A stretch of 64,000 bases of DNA from Planctomycetia bacterium (GCA_046343855.1 JBKDMX010000084.1:501-64500), one strand, 5' to 3'; shown: positions 12,827-60,943, numbered from the stretch's first letter. Made by a program: numbers and translations. The notes: generated from the sequence alone by a model not told the origin.

Positions 12827-13264
12827 ATGGACATCCTCGGTGAAATTCTCAAGCAGGTGATCGAAGGTGCTGCCCAGCAGCAGGCCCCGCAGCGTCAGCC
12901 GCAGCAGCGTGCGCCGCAGGCGCCCCAGCAGCGCGGACCGCAGGGCATGCCCTCGCCCGACGACCTCTCCGAAATCTTCAAGCAGATCTTCGGCGGTGGC
13001 CAAGCGCAAAAGCTGCCCGACGTGGTGAAACAGTTCGAAGAGAAGGGGCTGCGCGACGAGGTCGATTCGTGGGTTCGCACCGGCCCGAACAAGCCGGTCG
13101 ATCGCCGCCAGATCGAAGACGTCTTCGGCCAGCGCGAACTCGACGAGATCGCCCGGCAGCGCAACATCGATCGCGAACGGCTCGCCGAGGTGCTCAGCCG
13201 CTACATCCCGAAGATCATCGACGAGCTCACCCCGCAGGGACAGCTGCAGGGCCGCCGATCGTAG
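12827..13264 (+). CDS. YidB/DUF937-like protein with a Q/P-rich N-terminal region
   Basis: The C-terminal part (GLRDEVDSWVRTGPNKPVDRRQIEDVFGQRELDEIARQ...LAEVLSRYIPKIIDELTPQG) matches the YidB family pattern. Confidence 0.65.
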   Translation: MDILGEILKQVIEGAAQQQAPQRQPQQRAPQAPQQRGPQGMPSPDDLSEIFKQIFGGGQAQKLPDVVKQFEEKGLRDEVDSWVRTGPNKPVDRRQIEDVFGQRELDEIARQRNIDRERLAEVLSRYIPKIIDELTPQGQLQGRRS

Positions 13265-13316
13265 GACTGGCCTCCGAGCCTGTGTCACCTGCGTAGGACA
13301 GGCCTCCGAGCCTGTC
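13261..13316 (+). repeat. Two tandem family-1 GTAG-hairpin (REP-like) repeats
   Basis: GTAGGACTGGCCTCCGAGCCTGTG at 13261-13284 and GTAGGACAGGCCTCCGAGCCTGTC at 13293-13316. The TAG of the first copy is the stop of the yidB-like gene. Confidence 0.85.
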
Positions 13317-13333
13317 ATTCCGAAAGAATCACG

Positions 13334-14488
13334 ATGAAGCCCAGCCCGCTCGTGCTCGCGTGCGCCGCCGCGTTGGTCGTCGATCTGCCGACGACCGGCG
13401 GCGCCGTCGCAGCCGAGCGGGATTGGTCTCGAGTGCAGCTCGCCTGGCGGGACGATCCTCGGCCGCCGGCCGATGCCCCGTTCGAGGTTGAGATGCCGCG
13501 TGGCCGGCGGGAGACGCGGCGGGCAAACCGTCGGGCAGCCGCGCGTCGCATGCCCCTCGACGATCTGCCCGTCCATGTCGGTGGGCATGTCGGTGACCAG
13601 TTCGGTGGCCGACACGCATCCCCTGCCCCGCTCGCCGAGCCGCTCCCCTGGATCGAGCCCAGGCCTCTTGGGGAACAGTCCGAGCGATTCGATGAGCCGA
13701 TCGTTCATCGCGACCAGCCTTCTGTGCCGCAGCCCGACAGCCGGCAGCGGTTCGACATCCTGCTCCCGGCCGGCTGCGCCGGCACCAGCCGCCTACCGCT
13801 CGTCGTCTGGATTCATGGCGATACCTGGCGCGATGGCTCGAAAGCCGATTGCCCGATCCGCTGGCTGACAGACCTGGGCTACGCCGTTGCGAGCGTGGGC
13901 TACCGCCTGAGCGACGCCGCCACGTTTCCGGCGCAGCTCGACGACTGCCGCGCGGCGGTCGAATCGATCGCCACCAATGCCGCGGCCTGGGGAATCGACC
14001 AGGATCGGATCGCCGTCGTCGGCTCGGGGGGCGGCGGCCATTTGGCGGCGCTCGTCGGGCTGGCGGAAGAGCATGGCGTCGCGGCCGTCGCGGCGATCGC
14101 GGCCCCGACCAACCTCACGACGCTTGGCCCAGAACACGATCGGCCGTCCTCGCCGGCGAGTCAGCTCGTCGGCGGTCCGTTGCCGGAGTTTCGCGAGGCG
14201 GCGCAAGCCGCGAGTCCGCTGGCCCATGTGTCGGCCGGCGATCCGCCCTGCCTGATCGTGCACGGCGAACACGACGAACGGGTGCCGCTGAGCCAAAGCC
14301 TGAAATTCGACGCGGCGCTGCGGGCCGCCGGCGTCGAAAGCACGCTCGTCGTGCTCGCAGGGGGCAGCCACACGCCGTCACTTGCTCGCGACGCCGTCGC
14401 GGGCCAAGCCCTCCTGGCATTTCTCGCTCGCACGCTCGCCCCCAACGCCGCGGAGCCGCGCAGTGTCGTCATCCCCGCCTCCCGCTGA
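13334..14488 (+). CDS. Secreted alpha/beta hydrolase (esterase/lipase-like)
   Basis: Signal peptide, oxyanion-region LVVWIHGDTW, RLSDAATFPAQLDDC, and the elbow region IAVVGSGGGGHLAAL. Confidence 0.7.
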   Translation: MKPSPLVLACAAALVVDLPTTGGAVAAERDWSRVQLAWRDDPRPPADAPFEVEMPRGRRETRRANRRAAARRMPLDDLPVHVGGHVGDQFGGRHASPAPLAEPLPWIEPRPLGEQSERFDEPIVHRDQPSVPQPDSRQRFDILLPAGCAGTSRLPLVVWIHGDTWRDGSKADCPIRWLTDLGYAVASVGYRLSDAATFPAQLDDCRAAVESIATNAAAWGIDQDRIAVVGSGGGGHLAALVGLAEEHGVAAVAAIAAPTNLTTLGPEHDRPSSPASQLVGGPLPEFREAAQAASPLAHVSAGDPPCLIVHGEHDERVPLSQSLKFDAALRAAGVESTLVVLAGGSHTPSLARDAVAGQALLAFLARTLAPNAAEPRSVVIPASR

Positions 14489-15347
14489 GAGCCCGGATTC
14501 CGGCGGTGGGCGCGAGGGGCTCGGCCGCCGCGAGTGGCTGGCCCGCATGGGCGTGCTCGCCGGCGCCGTGCCGATCGTCGGCGCGGTCGATGGCCTGCTC
14601 GTCACGCCGCGGCGGCTCTCGACGAGCGATCATGCCGTCGGCACTGCCGCGTCGCCCGCTGCACCGCGGCTTTCCGTCCTGCAGATCAGCGATCTCCATC
14701 TCAAGCAGATCGGCAGCCTCGAGGAACGGCTGCTCGAGCAGATTCATGCCCGGGCGCCCGATGTGATCGTCCTCACCGGCGACGTGGTCGATCGTCGGGC
14801 GTCGCTCTGGCAGCTCGAACTGTTTCTGCGGCAACTGCCCCATGCCACGCGCCGCTTCGCCATCACCGGCAATTGGGAGCATTGGGCGGGAATTTCGCTC
14901 GAATCGCTCGAGCGGCTCTACGCGGGGCATGGCGTCGAACTGCTGATGAATCGCTCCGTCGTGTTCGACCATCACGGCCGCCGGGTGCGGGTCACGGGGC
15001 TCGATGACCTCATTGGGGGCCAGCCAAACGCGGAGGCCGCGCTGGCCGACGCCGAGCCCTGCGACAACCACGTGCTGCTCGCGCACTGCCCGGCCGTCCG
15101 CGACGCCCTGCTGCTTCCCACCGGGCACACTCCCACGTTCATGCTCTCCGGCCATACGCATGGCGGGCAGATCGCCCCCTTCGGCGTCGCGCTCAAGCTG
15201 CCGCATGGCAGCGGCGGCTATGTCGCGGGCTGGTATCGCGGCGACGGCGTGCCGCTCTACGTCTCGCGCGGCATCGGCACGTCGCTCGTGCCGATTCGCA
15301 TCGGCGCGACACCGGAACTGGCGCAGTTCGACTGGTCGCTCGCCTGA
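14463..15347 (+). CDS. Tat-exported metallophosphoesterase
   Basis: Twin-arginine motif GRREWLARMGVLAG. Phosphoesterase motifs ISDLH, TGDVVD, GNWEHW and SGHTHGGQ. The start is uncertain: in-frame GTG at 14463 is chosen, and the ORF track uses TTG at 14382. Confidence 0.7.
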   Translation: MSSSPPPAESPDSGGGREGLGRREWLARMGVLAGAVPIVGAVDGLLVTPRRLSTSDHAVGTAASPAAPRLSVLQISDLHLKQIGSLEERLLEQIHARAPDVIVLTGDVVDRRASLWQLELFLRQLPHATRRFAITGNWEHWAGISLESLERLYAGHGVELLMNRSVVFDHHGRRVRVTGLDDLIGGQPNAEAALADAEPCDNHVLLAHCPAVRDALLLPTGHTPTFMLSGHTHGGQIAPFGVALKLPHGSGGYVAGWYRGDGVPLYVSRGIGTSLVPIRIGATPELAQFDWSLA

Positions 15348-60409: not shown

Positions 60410-60621
60410 GGGATCACCTCGAAGGGAAGGAAACAGATCGCAGGGCTCAAAGGCCTCACTACGACGCTACGCCATAAACGGCTCTCATGCTAATTACACG
60501 GCCAGGTCGCAGCAAACCGCCGCGATTCCCCAGGCGGCCCAGGCGGCACAACCGCTATGACAGGATGCTTTTGGGGCACACGGGCCCGGAGGCGTGCGGC
60601 ACGGGGGACGCGAGCGGCACG

Positions 60622-60667
60622 GGAAAAAGAGGAAGGCCGTGGCAGCTTGGGCTTGCCACGGCCTTCC
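60622..60667 (-). terminator. Intrinsic terminator (minus strand) downstream of nrdJ
   Basis: Perfect 14-bp arms GGAAGGCCGTGGCA / TGCCACGGCCTTCC with a 9-nt loop. On the minus strand it is followed by TCTTTTTCCC. Confidence 0.65.
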
Positions 60668-60919
60668 GATGGATCGAACCTGTCGTCCGCCTGCGAACGG
60701 GGTAGAAAATTGCGAAACTGATGCGGATCGGGCAGGTGCAAGCACCCGCTTTTCAGTGGATCCGGATCAACGCGTTGGGGTTGGCACCTCCGACGGGACG
60801 CGGAGACAGGTCGAATGTCGATGTCCTGTCATTCGTCCAGATTCTTCCCTCGTCTGCAGTGGTTTTTTTGCCTCGGGTCACAACCGTCACGATCACTGCC
60901 ACCGCACGCCGCGCTGCCA

Positions 60920-60943
60920 GACAGGCACGGAGGCCTGTCGTAC
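60920..60943 (-). repeat. Family-1 REP-like repeat with a mutated head (GTACGAC)
   Basis: GACAGGCACGGAGGCCTGTCGTAC, in the nrdJ 3' region. Confidence 0.7.

What the first reader, a model, noticed from the sequence alone, without database searches (positions are those of the whole stretch)
13261..60943. GTAG-headed palindromic (REP-like) repeat family whose TAG is the stop codon of at least 11 genes
I count at least 16 copies of GTAGGACAGGC-[TTCA | CTCCGT | CTCCGA | CTCTGT]-GCCTGTC in 64 kb.
- Forward copies start at 13261, 13293, 16971, 17054, 21144, 30503, 51407, 52732, 54577 and 59266.
- Reverse copies lie at 21191-21212, 49170-49191, 59291-59314 and 60920-60943.
- Degenerate copies lie at 26454, 26535 and 49136.

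The layout is a 5' GTAG tetranucleotide followed by a 7-8 bp GC-rich hairpin. This is the canonical REP architecture recognised by RAYT (TnpA-REP, IS200/IS605-like Y1) transposases.

For 11 CDS, the ORF-track stop coordinate is exactly the TAG of the repeat head. This is directly visible in the sequence:
- yidB-like (13264)
- apt (16974)
- Gfo (21147)
- GNAT (21209)
- patB (26457)
- FKBP (30506)
- araC (49188)
- uxaE-like (51410)
- fucU (52735)
- amidohydrolase (54580)
- pgk (59269)

A 12th gene (stop at 59315) ends 0 nt from a copy. Convergent gene pairs carry inverted doublets, one copy per gene end. No transposase is present in this window.

A mobile or amplified element that systematically provides the termination codon is not normal 'extragenic' REP behaviour. 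I see two possible explanations. One is target-site selection for (G)TAG, as IS200/IS605 elements insert 3' of a specific tetranucleotide. The other is selection for a stop-codon-coupled RNA hairpin acting in mRNA 3'-end protection, termination or ribosome release.
Basis: partly seen in the sequence, partly recalled or inferred. Interest (0 to 1): 0.85.

Follow-up and report, generated by a model that had tools for sequence, protein, structure and literature searches.

The report
GTAG-headed REP repeats supplying stop codons
A short hairpin repeat of a well-known bacterial kind (REP elements, spread by RAYT transposases) sits at the ends of many genes in this planctomycete genome so that the TAG in its head is the stop codon; this is real and unusually frequent here, but it has already been described for this class of repeat.

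Summary
The window has 10 exact and 4 near-exact copies of GTAG-GACAGGC-loop-GCCTGTC (0 expected by chance), plus 2 decayed copies. Public, independent gene calls confirm that 11 genes end in the TAG of the repeat head. A 12th gene ends in TGA directly before a copy.

Close relatives end the same proteins at the same or nearly the same codon, often with TGA or TAA and no repeat. The TAG is therefore a true stop, and the repeat leaves the protein unchanged.

The element is a GTAG-type REP. The same repeat flanks Y1 (RAYT) transposase genes in four other genomes or contigs, and a compensated stem variant flanks one in a Planctomycetes MAG. No RAYT lies in this window. The copies lack U-runs and are not intrinsic terminators.

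An independent sample of 209 copies from other contigs shows a sharp spike at exact stop overlap: 92 copies, against at most 8 at any other offset.

Di Nocera et al. [quoted passage not shown] The finding is thus a new member of a known kind, unusual only in degree (about 70-80% of copies). Why the copies sit exactly on stops, whether by targeting or by selection, remains open.

The parts
13261..13284 (+). REP copy with mutated arms (GTAGGACTGGC-CTCCGA-GCCTGTG). Its TAG (13262-13264) is the stop of the YidB-like gene 12827-13264.
   Evidence: The RNA hairpin is lost.
13293..13316 (+). Exact REP copy, head-to-tail with the copy at 13261 (32-nt spacing), intergenic.
16971..16994 (+). Exact REP copy (loop CTCCGT). 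Its TAG is the stop of apt (16447-16974).
   Evidence: Relative L138 has a TTCA-loop copy at the same codon.
17054..17077 (+). Exact REP copy created by an 83-84 bp tandem duplication of the REP plus 60 nt of flank. The duplication is absent from sister contigs L001, L002, L003 and L005.
21144..21167 (+). Exact REP copy (loop CTCTGT). Its TAG is the stop of the Gfo/Idh/MocA oxidoreductase gene 19672-21147.
21191..21212 (-). Exact REP copy (loop TTCA). Its TAG is the stop of the GNAT acetyltransferase gene 21209-21757 (-). It forms an inverted doublet with the copy at 21144.
   Evidence: The doublet folds at -37.4 kcal/mol.
26454..26464 (+). Head-only remnant (GTAGGACAGTC). Its TAG is the stop of the aminotransferase gene 25294-26457.
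   Evidence: The orthologous site in L138 has an intact TTCA copy plus two more.
30503..30524 (+). REP copy with one arm mismatch. Its TAG is the stop of the FKBP gene 30030-30506.
49136..49156 (+). Decayed copy without a GTAG head, in the gyrB-araC convergent spacer.
49170..49191 (-). Exact REP copy (TTCA). Its TAG is the stop of araC (49188-50087, -).
   Evidence: In L130 a GTAG-to-GCAG SNP extends AraC from 299 to 316 aa.
51407..51428 (+). Exact REP copy (TTCA). Its TAG is the stop of the UxaE-like gene. The next gene of the operon starts at 51434.
52732..52753 (+). Exact REP copy (TTCA). Its TAG is the stop of fucU. It lies inside an operon.
54577..54613 (+). Exact REP copy (TTCA, 54577-54598) whose TAG is the stop of the amidohydrolase gene. 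It is followed by a duplicated half-REP, TTCAGCCTGTC, at 54603-54613.
59266..59287 (+). REP copy with a degenerate 3' arm. Its TAG is the stop of pgk (58064-59269).
59291..59314 (-). Exact REP copy (CTCCGT) that directly abuts the TGA stop of the SHD1-domain gene 59315-60409 (-). It forms an inverted doublet with the copy at 59266.
   Evidence: The doublet folds at -31.5 kcal/mol.
60920..60943 (-). REP copy with a mutated head (GTAC), 92 nt downstream of the ribonucleotide reductase stop, in sense orientation.
25085..25111 (+). Copy of a second GTAG REP family (GTAG-ACCGCTTGC-TCT-GCAAGCGG), 11 nt after the TAG stop of the baeRF gene.
49104..49130 (+). Second copy of the second GTAG REP family, 6 nt after the TAG stop of gyrB.

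Best explanation
**What it is.** This is a REP (repetitive extragenic palindrome) family of the GTAG super-family. It resembles the 'group 3' type: a perfect 7-bp palindrome directly preceded by GTAG. The host is a freshwater Planctomycetia (Pirellulales-like) genome. REPs of this kind are non-autonomous and are propagated in trans by a RAYT (TnpA-REP, Y1/HUH) transposase, which needs the GTAG head for cleavage.

**Where the copies sit (shown).** Copies lie almost only at the 3' boundary of ORFs, on the sense strand. The head is fused to the gene, so its TAG is the working stop codon and the stem begins at the next base.

**Effect on the proteins (shown).** Protein length is unchanged, or differs by 1-2 residues, compared with relatives that lack the repeat.

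**History (shown).** The sites are long-lived across relatives at 80-92% protein identity. The repeat body turns over: loop variants are swapped, and copies decay to half-REPs, duplicate in tandem, or are gained and lost.

**Function (inferred, not shown).** The repeat is transcribed as the last bases of the mRNA or of an intercistronic spacer. It forms a hairpin of about -12.5 kcal/mol, and long -31 to -37 kcal/mol hairpins at convergent gene pairs. By analogy with S. maltophilia SMAG and E. coli REPs, this hairpin would block 3' exonucleases. Because it starts inside the ribosome footprint at the stop codon, it may also modulate termination.

**Origin of the exact fusion (inferred).** I think it comes from placement or re-copying at existing (G)TAG or REP remnants, combined with purifying selection that removes every insertion that alters the protein.
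For: **Repeat family and chance.** 10 exact copies against 0 expected.

**Structure.**
- The hairpin folds at -12.5 to -12.8 kcal/mol, z = -3.3 to -4.9.
- The stem is kept by compensatory changes in 30 of about 400 copies, against 36 single mismatches.

**RAYT link.**
- A Y1_Tnp gene (Pfam PF01797) is flanked by inverted copies of the same repeat in Cylindrospermum L021.
- RAYT homologues are flanked by it in L100, L147 and L248.
- A Planctomycetes RAYT (L144) is flanked by the compensated variant GTAG-CACAGGC...GCCTGTG.
- Homologues of the L100 RAYT are annotated 'REP element-mobilizing transposase RayT'.

**Stop coupling.**
- 11 independently called genes end in the head's TAG.
- In 209 copies outside the window's genome, 92 sit at exact overlap, against at most 8 at any other offset.
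- The TAG frame is open for at least 100 codons in 59 of 142 copies, against 16 and 32 for the control frames.

**True stop.**
- pgk, araC, amidohydrolase, GNAT and gfo end at the same codon in relatives, with TGA, TAA or TAG.
- yidB, apt, uxaE and fucU differ by 1-2 codons.
- A natural GTAG-to-GCAG SNP extends AraC by 17 aa.

**Dynamics.**
- 8 copies occupy the araC-RNR region of the window, against 1 in the syntenic region of L133.
- An 83-bp tandem duplication is polymorphic within the population.
- Loop variants differ at orthologous sites.

**Literature.**
- PMC3733652 reports that GTAG REPs supply TAG stops.
- PMC8266576 describes the role of GTAG in RAYT cleavage.
- PMC3184786 reports that SMAG repeats stabilise upstream transcripts.
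- PMC12306157 reports that REPs within 15 nt of a stop stall ribosomes.
Against: - No RAYT was found in the window or in the roughly 100 kb of same-lineage DNA I could reach, so the cognate enzyme of this genome is unproven.
- REP transposition has never been shown in vivo for any family.
- The RNA-level role is not demonstrated. Single stem mismatches are only weakly biased to G.U on the sense strand (16 against 9, p = 0.23), so a DNA-level hairpin is equally compatible.
- Several stop-coupled copies have damaged stems (13261, 59266, 26454) yet the genes keep the TAG. The stop function therefore persists without the hairpin.
- In Verrucomicrobiota, Chloroflexota and Cyanobacteria the same repeat shows no stop coupling. 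The coupling is not intrinsic to the sequence.
Confidence: 0.8

Rival explanations
1. **Stop-codon homing.** The mobile unit is the hairpin body. Like IS200/IS605 elements, it integrates immediately 3' of a resident tetranucleotide, here GTAG. The commonest tolerated GTAG is a TAG stop preceded by G, so copies pile up on stop codons. Excision leaves the GTAG behind.
For: - gyrB ends GTG-TAG in the window with no repeat, and in L133 the hairpin follows that same TAG directly.
- gfo ends GTG-TAG in REP-poor L140 and carries the repeat in the window and in L138.
- The same sites (apt, gfo) hold different loop variants in sister genomes, as expected from repeated filling of one target.
- 11 of 13 stop-GTAGs are occupied.
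Against: - Only 3 of 15 intergenic GTAGs are occupied, against 11 of 13 at stops (p = 0.002). GTAG alone does not predict occupancy.
- In pgk, araC, amidohydrolase and GNAT the relatives have TGA at that codon, not TAG.
- Copies also directly abut TGA or TAA stops: the SHD1 gene in the window and GNAT in L138.
- The L140 'empty' gfo site may be a decayed REP (GTAG-CC-CGCCTGCC).
- Biochemistry places GTAG inside the REP as a guide for CT or CA cleavage (PMC8266576).
Confidence: 0.25
2. **Selection for a stop-coupled hairpin.** Insertions land anywhere near gene ends. Only those whose hairpin starts at the stop codon are kept. They give a benefit, such as a minimal 3' UTR with exonuclease protection, tuning of termination or trans-translation, or differential expression within operons. 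Deletion bias then collapses any spacer until the head's TAG becomes the stop.
For: - There is a sharp spike at exact overlap, and abutting TGA|GTAG and TAA|GTAG cases exist.
- The GNAT series TGA (L140), TAA+GTAG-REP (L138) and TAG-REP (window) looks like stepwise fusion.
- Three copies sit between genes of one operon (uxaE, fucU, amidohydrolase), where a terminator would be harmful.
- E. coli and S. maltophilia offer precedents.
Against: - Random insertion followed by selection should leave many neutral intergenic copies, and few are seen.
- Copies with broken stems remain at stops.
- There is no coupling in other phyla that carry the same repeat.
- No expression data exist.
Confidence: 0.3
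3. **Terminator reading.** The motif is an ordinary Rho-independent terminator, or a conserved non-mobile terminator inherited at orthologous sites.
For: It is a GC-rich hairpin downstream of genes, and some sites are shared with relatives.
Against: - No copy has a T-run, and none is picked up by the terminator scan. Classical terminators do exist elsewhere, at 18627-18661 and 17011-17027.
- Three copies lie inside an operon.
- The sequence is identical at many unrelated loci and in many phyla.
- Presence and absence differ between near relatives.
- There is no Rfam match.
Confidence: 0.03
4. **Artefact reading.** The stop coincidence is an annotation artefact or chance.
For: High-GC genomes have many long spurious ORFs. 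Control frames are open for at least 100 codons in 11-23% of cases.
Against: - All 11 genes have Pfam domains that reach the C-terminus.
- Independent public gene calls agree.
- Orthologues end at the same codon.
- The enrichment over control frames is significant.
Confidence: 0.01

Closest known systems
GTAG-tagged REP families of Di Nocera, De Gregorio and Rocco 2013 (BMC Genomics 14:522), including S. maltophilia SMAG repeats (Rocco et al. 2010)
   Same: - A 5' GTAG followed directly by a 6-9 bp GC-rich stem and a short loop.
- Occurrence as singles, head-head dimers and clusters.
- Location mostly downstream of ORFs, between unidirectional and convergent genes.
- The TAG of the head 'often' serves as the stop codon.
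- Presence in Planctomycetes, Verrucomicrobia, Cyanobacteria and Chloroflexi.
   Different: - The specific core GACAGGC/GCCTGTC could not be found in that paper's text or supplements. Figure 1 was not readable.
- The share of stop-supplying copies here is about 70-80%, higher than the qualitative 'often'.
- The host is an uncultured freshwater planctomycete.
REPtrons: RAYT/TnpA-REP with group 3 REPs (Nunvar 2010; Ton-Hoang 2012; Corneloup 2021)
   Same: - A perfect palindrome directly preceded by GTAG.
- RAYT genes flanked by inverted copies of the same repeat (L021, L100, L147, L248).
   Different: - No RAYT is seen in the window.
- RAYTs flanked by this same core are only 29-39% identical to each other, whereas REP classes are usually thought to be specific to their RAYT.
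E. coli REPs within 15 nt of a stop codon (Liang, Rudd and Deutscher 2015, cited in PMC12306157)
   Same: The hairpin lies inside the footprint of a terminating ribosome. The element lies 3' of the ORF on the mRNA.
   Different: - E. coli REPs are longer, imperfect palindromes.
- In E. coli the GTAG lies on the distal side relative to most upstream genes and does not itself serve as the stop.
- No ribosome-stalling data exist here.
IS200/IS605 insertion 3' of a target tetranucleotide (IS608 TTAC) and their MITE-like derivatives
   Same: Y1/HUH chemistry, single-strand hairpin recognition, and a tetranucleotide at the 5' foot of the hairpin.
   Different: - A REP is a single hairpin without left and right ends.
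- In RAYT biochemistry GTAG is a guide inside the element, not the external target.
- Occupancy here is not explained by GTAG alone.

Membership tests
REP (repetitive extragenic palindrome), GTAG super-family | Short (20-40 bp) repeat able to fold into a GC-rich stem-loop | tested here: met
   The units are 22-24 nt with a 7-bp stem and a 4-6 nt loop. They fold at -12.5 kcal/mol, z = -4.9. Compensatory stem changes occur in 30 copies.
REP (repetitive extragenic palindrome), GTAG super-family | Unpaired GTAG tetranucleotide at the 5' foot of the stem | tested here: met
   All 10 exact copies and 3 of the 4 near-exact copies carry it. One has GTAC.
REP (repetitive extragenic palindrome), GTAG super-family | High copy number, dispersed through the genome | tested here: inconclusive
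   There are 14 copies in 64 kb, 9 in 21 kb of L138, and further copies on other contigs of the same sample (L212, L215). The whole genome was not available for a count.
REP (repetitive extragenic palindrome), GTAG super-family | Extragenic location, preferentially 3' of ORFs, with inverted dimers between convergent genes | tested here: met
   Every copy lies downstream of a gene on its sense strand. Full inverted doublets occur at gfo/GNAT and pgk/SHD1. In the gyrB/araC spacer one intact copy on araC's stop faces only a decayed, headless copy. Only the TAG of the head overlaps coding sequence.
REPtron (REP plus cognate RAYT) | A RAYT (Y1_Tnp, HUH plus catalytic Tyr) gene flanked by inverted copies of the same REP in the same genome | not testable with these tools
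   There is no RAYT in the window or in same-lineage loci. The feature is met in other genomes that carry the identical repeat: L021 (Pfam PF01797), L100, L147 and L248. It is met with a compensated variant in Planctomycetes L144.
Rho-independent (intrinsic) terminator | GC-rich hairpin immediately followed by a U-run | tested here: not met
   No REP copy appears among the terminator-like sites, and the downstream bases are not T-rich.
IS200/IS605-type targeted insertion | The element lies 3' of a fixed tetranucleotide that is present at the empty site | tested here: inconclusive
   Unoccupied gyrB (window) and gfo (L140) sites do end in GTAG. Unoccupied pgk, araC, amidohydrolase and GNAT sites end in TGA. 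Intergenic GTAGs are mostly unoccupied.
Translation-coupled REP (Liang et al. 2015 class) | REP hairpin no more than 15 nt from the stop codon of the upstream ORF | tested here: met
   The stem starts at the base after the stop in 9 of the 14 solid copies and 4 nt after it in 1 more, 10 of 14 in all (the head-only remnant at 26454 is an 11th stop-overlapping head but has no stem). Ribosome stalling and tmRNA tagging were not testable.

The most novel reading that the evidence does not exclude
**Stop-codon homing.** In this lineage the REP/RAYT system may re-fill one class of site, the G-TAG at the end of ORFs, using the GTAG both as its recognition motif and as its landing mark.
- This would make it a mobile element that homes to stop codons as a safe harbour.
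- It would explain why sister genomes carry different loop variants at the same stop.
- It would explain why 11 of 13 stop-GTAGs are occupied.

**A linked oddity.** The identical 7-bp core (GTAG-GACAGGC) occurs in at least ten phyla, next to RAYTs that are only 29-39% identical to each other. The core may therefore be constrained by something other than its own transposase.
Probability: 0.2. Interest if true: 0.65.

Novelty: new member of a known kind. Interest (0 to 1): 0.35.

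Why it matters
How REPs spread is still unknown; PMC8266576 calls their dissemination mechanisms 'poorly understood'. This lineage offers many filled, empty and decayed orthologous sites at the exact codon level. These include natural experiments:
- a head SNP that extends AraC by 17 aa;
- loop swaps at the same stop codon in sister genomes;
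- a series at the GNAT stop running from TGA, to TAA plus an abutting copy, to a fused TAG copy.

It is therefore a good system for testing whether RAYT-type repeats choose their sites or are filtered by selection. It can also test whether a hairpin that starts at the stop codon alters termination or mRNA stability.

For annotation, it is a reminder that in such genomes a large share of TAG stops (11 of 20 here) is supplied by a repeat.

Tried and rejected
**Rejected readings**
- Intrinsic terminator: the copies have no U-run, three lie inside an operon, and there is no Rfam hit.
- Annotation artefact: rejected by the Pfam matches, the independent gene calls and the orthologue C-termini.
- Simple 'any GTAG is a target': intergenic GTAGs are mostly empty.

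**Searches that led nowhere**
- I looked for the exact core sequence in Di Nocera 2013. It is not in the text or supplements, and the figures are not held.
- I tried to read Liang 2015 and Liang 2016 directly. Neither is held, so I cite them through PMC12306157.
- I looked for the RAYT of this lineage through homologues of the L100 RAYT. P0355 (L141, L143) is flanked by a different repeat, GTGG-CATCGGCG. P0254 (L144) is flanked by a close variant. Neither comes from the window's own genome.

**Inconclusive tests**
- Strand-specific G.U bias as evidence for an RNA role: weak and not significant.
- An origin of replication near dnaN: no DnaA-box cluster was found.

Full report
**1. The observation**

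The pattern GTAGGACAGGC-N4-6-GCCTGTC occurs 10 times exactly in the 64-kb window, against 0.00 expected in 100 dinucleotide-preserving shuffles. With one or two mismatches allowed, reading the sequence adds four more real copies:
- 13261, with both arms mutated;
- 30503, with one arm mismatch;
- 59266, with a degenerate 3' arm;
- 60920-60943, with head GTAC.

There are also two decayed copies: a headless one at 49136 and a head-only remnant at 26454. The loops are TTCA (5 copies), CTCCGT (3), CTCCGA and CTCTGT.

**2. Are the stop codons real?**

Near-identical public contigs (99.3-99.9% identity) carry independent gene calls, and I mapped 45 of these onto the window.
- All eleven have Pfam domains, several reaching the last residues.
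- The SHD1-domain gene ends in TGA directly followed by GTAG.
- Stop usage is TAG 20, TGA 19 and TAA 6. Without the repeat-coupled genes, TAG is 9 of 34.
- Of 13 GTAGs overlapping a stop, 11 are repeat heads. Of 15 intergenic GTAGs, 3 are, and two of those are tandem duplicates while one abuts a stop (Fisher p = 0.002).

**3. Orthologue test**

I fetched syntenic loci from relatives with 81-92% protein identity and compared gene ends.

| Gene | Window | Relatives |
|---|---|---|
| pgk | TAG in repeat | TGA at the same codon (L133, L134), no repeat |
| araC | TAG in repeat | TGA at the same codon (L133), no repeat |
| amidohydrolase | TAG in repeat | TGA at the same codon (L133), no repeat |
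| GNAT | TAG in repeat | TGA at the same codon (L140); TAA followed at once by a GTAG copy (L138) |
| gfo | TAG in repeat | TAG at the same codon (L138, L139, L140) |
| yidB, apt, uxaE, fucU | TAG in repeat | end differs by one or two codons |

The TAG is therefore the true stop, and the repeat leaves the protein essentially unchanged. A natural control exists: in L130 a GTAG-to-GCAG SNP removes the stop, and AraC grows from 299 to 316 residues, reading through the repeat.

**4. Dynamics**

- The closest relative, L138, has copies at the same stops (yidB, apt, gfo, aminotransferase). They carry other loop variants: TTCA where the window has CTCCGT or CTCTGT.
- L138 has a copy on the stop of the 101-aa gene, where the window has TAA and no repeat.
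- More distant relatives show remnants: GTAGGACAGAC (L139 gfo), GTAG-CC-CGCCTGCC (L140 gfo), TAG-CCTGTC (L133 uxaE), and a headless hairpin 18 nt after gyrB in L136.
- In L133 the hairpin sits directly on the GTG-TAG of gyrB. That same site is unoccupied in the window.
- The syntenic araC-RNR region has 8 copies in the window and 1 in L133.
- The copy at 17054 is part of an 83-84 bp tandem duplication missing from four sister contigs.

The sites are thus old, while the repeat bodies are gained, lost, swapped and decayed.

**5. What it is**

The layout of GTAG plus a perfect short palindrome matches GTAG-type, group-3-like REPs (PMC3733652; PMC8266576). A scan of one genome per species found the same sequence, often as inverted doublets, in many phyla:
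- Planctomycetota, Acidobacteriota, Verrucomicrobiota, Chloroflexota, Cyanobacteria, Nitrospirota and others;
- with loop variants typical of each phylum.

The link to RAYT transposases is direct:
- In Cylindrospermum (L021) a 176-aa ORF has HVH and YIRQNPVQAGL motifs and a Pfam Y1_Tnp match. Inverted copies of this repeat flank it.
- RAYT homologues flanked by the same repeat occur in L100, L147 and L248. In L248 the upstream gene ends in the repeat's TAG.
- A Planctomycetes RAYT (L144) is flanked by the compensated variant GTAG-CACAGGC...GCCTGTG.
- No RAYT lies in the window.

The copies are not intrinsic terminators. None has a T-run, and none is found by the terminator scan, which does find classical terminators at 18627-18661 and 17011-17027. 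Three copies lie between genes of one operon. Rfam has no match.

**6. Is the stop coupling general?**

- In 209 copies from contigs outside the window's genome (GC at least 0.58), 92 have the head's TAG as the end of a frame open for at least 100 codons. No other offset holds more than 8.
- In the metagenome sample the TAG frame is open in 59 of 142 copies, against 16 and 32 for the two control frames (p = 8e-9 and 9e-4).
- TTCA copies picked up incidentally in high-GC contigs are stop-coupled in 11 of 14 cases.
- Coupling is seen in Planctomycetota and Acidobacteriota, but not in Verrucomicrobiota, Chloroflexota or Cyanobacteria.

**7. How it probably works**

Shown:
- The head's TAG terminates translation.
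- The stem begins at the next base.
- Single copies fold at about -12.5 kcal/mol, and doublets between convergent genes fold into -31 to -37 kcal/mol hairpins that include both stop codons.
- The stem is maintained by compensatory changes.

Inferred from other systems:
- The hairpin may protect mRNA 3' ends or operon segments. SMAG repeats stabilise upstream transcripts (PMC3184786).
- It may interfere with the terminating ribosome. E. coli REPs within 15 nt of a stop stall ribosomes (PMC12306157 citing Liang 2015).
- Sense-strand G.U bias is weak (16 against 9, p = 0.23), so an RNA role is not proven.

Two accounts of the exact fusion remain open:
- **Placement 3' of resident G-TAG.** The gyrB and gfo sites and the loop swaps support it. 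The TGA orthologues, the abutting TGA|GTAG cases and the empty intergenic GTAGs argue against it.
- **Selection with spacer collapse.** The GNAT series supports it. The scarcity of spaced copies argues against it.

**8. Comparison with what is known**

Di Nocera et al. 2013 state that GTAG REP termini often provide the TAG stop codon to flanking ORFs. They also report GTAG REPs in Planctomycetes.

What is unusual here is the degree: about 70-80% of copies are stop-coupled, and 11 of the 20 TAG stops in the mapped genes come from the repeat. Separately, the identical core sits next to RAYTs that are only 29-39% identical to each other.

**9. Verdict**

This is a real feature and a new member of a known kind. 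It has modest interest as a natural system for studying REP site choice.

Noticed in passing
window 25085-25111 and 49104-49130 (+): A second GTAG REP family, GTAG-ACCGCTTGC-TCT-GCAAGCGG (hairpin -13.3 kcal/mol), lies 6-11 nt after the TAG stops of the baeRF gene and of gyrB. Here the head is not the stop codon.
   Followed up: partly
window 25085-25220; L019 7205-7340: A segment of about 125 nt that follows the second-family REP is 89% identical to an intergenic stretch in another Pirellulales MAG. There it is bounded by inverted second-family REPs with a first-family REP inside. This looks like a REPIN or MITE-like composite, or a small RNA.
   Followed up: partly
genome and metagenome loci L007-L126 and L145-L257: The identical core GTAG-GACAGGC...GCCTGTC occurs in at least ten phyla, with phylum-typical loops. 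It lies next to RAYTs that are only 29-39% identical to each other (L021, L100, L147, L248). Closer RAYT homologues carry other repeats (L141, L144).
   Followed up: partly
L130 6915-6918 (window 49188-49191): A population SNP changes GTAG to GCAG in the repeat head. This removes araC's stop and extends the protein by 17 residues through the repeat.
   Followed up: yes
window 16971-17136: An 83-84 bp tandem duplication (REP plus 60 nt) is polymorphic among sister contigs. The duplicated unit contains a terminator-like hairpin at 17011-17027 (CATCGGC-ATCC-CGCCGAT plus a T-run). That hairpin resembles the GTGG-CATCGGCG-TCC-CGCCGATG repeat that flanks a Planctomycetes RAYT in L141.
   Followed up: partly
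window 54599-54613: A half-REP (TTCAGCCTGTC) is duplicated just after the amidohydrolase copy. L138 has a similar half-REP in the gfo-GNAT spacer. This suggests slippage within REP clusters.
   Followed up: no
window 23802-25073 (+): A gene for a bacterial eRF1-like protein (baeRF family 3/6 Pfam hits in the public call) lies next to a 609-aa protein with no Pfam hit on record in the public gene call (not scanned by me). I found no link to the stop-coupled repeats.
   Followed up: no
window 44610-49097: The dnaN-dciA-gyrB cluster follows a 520-bp AT-richer spacer. Cumulative GC skew has its minimum at about 44-48 kb. No DnaA-box cluster was found, so an origin of replication here is only a possibility.
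   Followed up: partly
L133 3311-3325; L140 11474-11525: REP-poor relatives carry footprints at orthologous stops: TAG-CCTGTC, GTAG-CC-CGCCTGCC and TGA-CAGGCTT. In L140 GNAT the TGA can be derived from TAG-GAC by a 3-nt deletion.
   Followed up: partly
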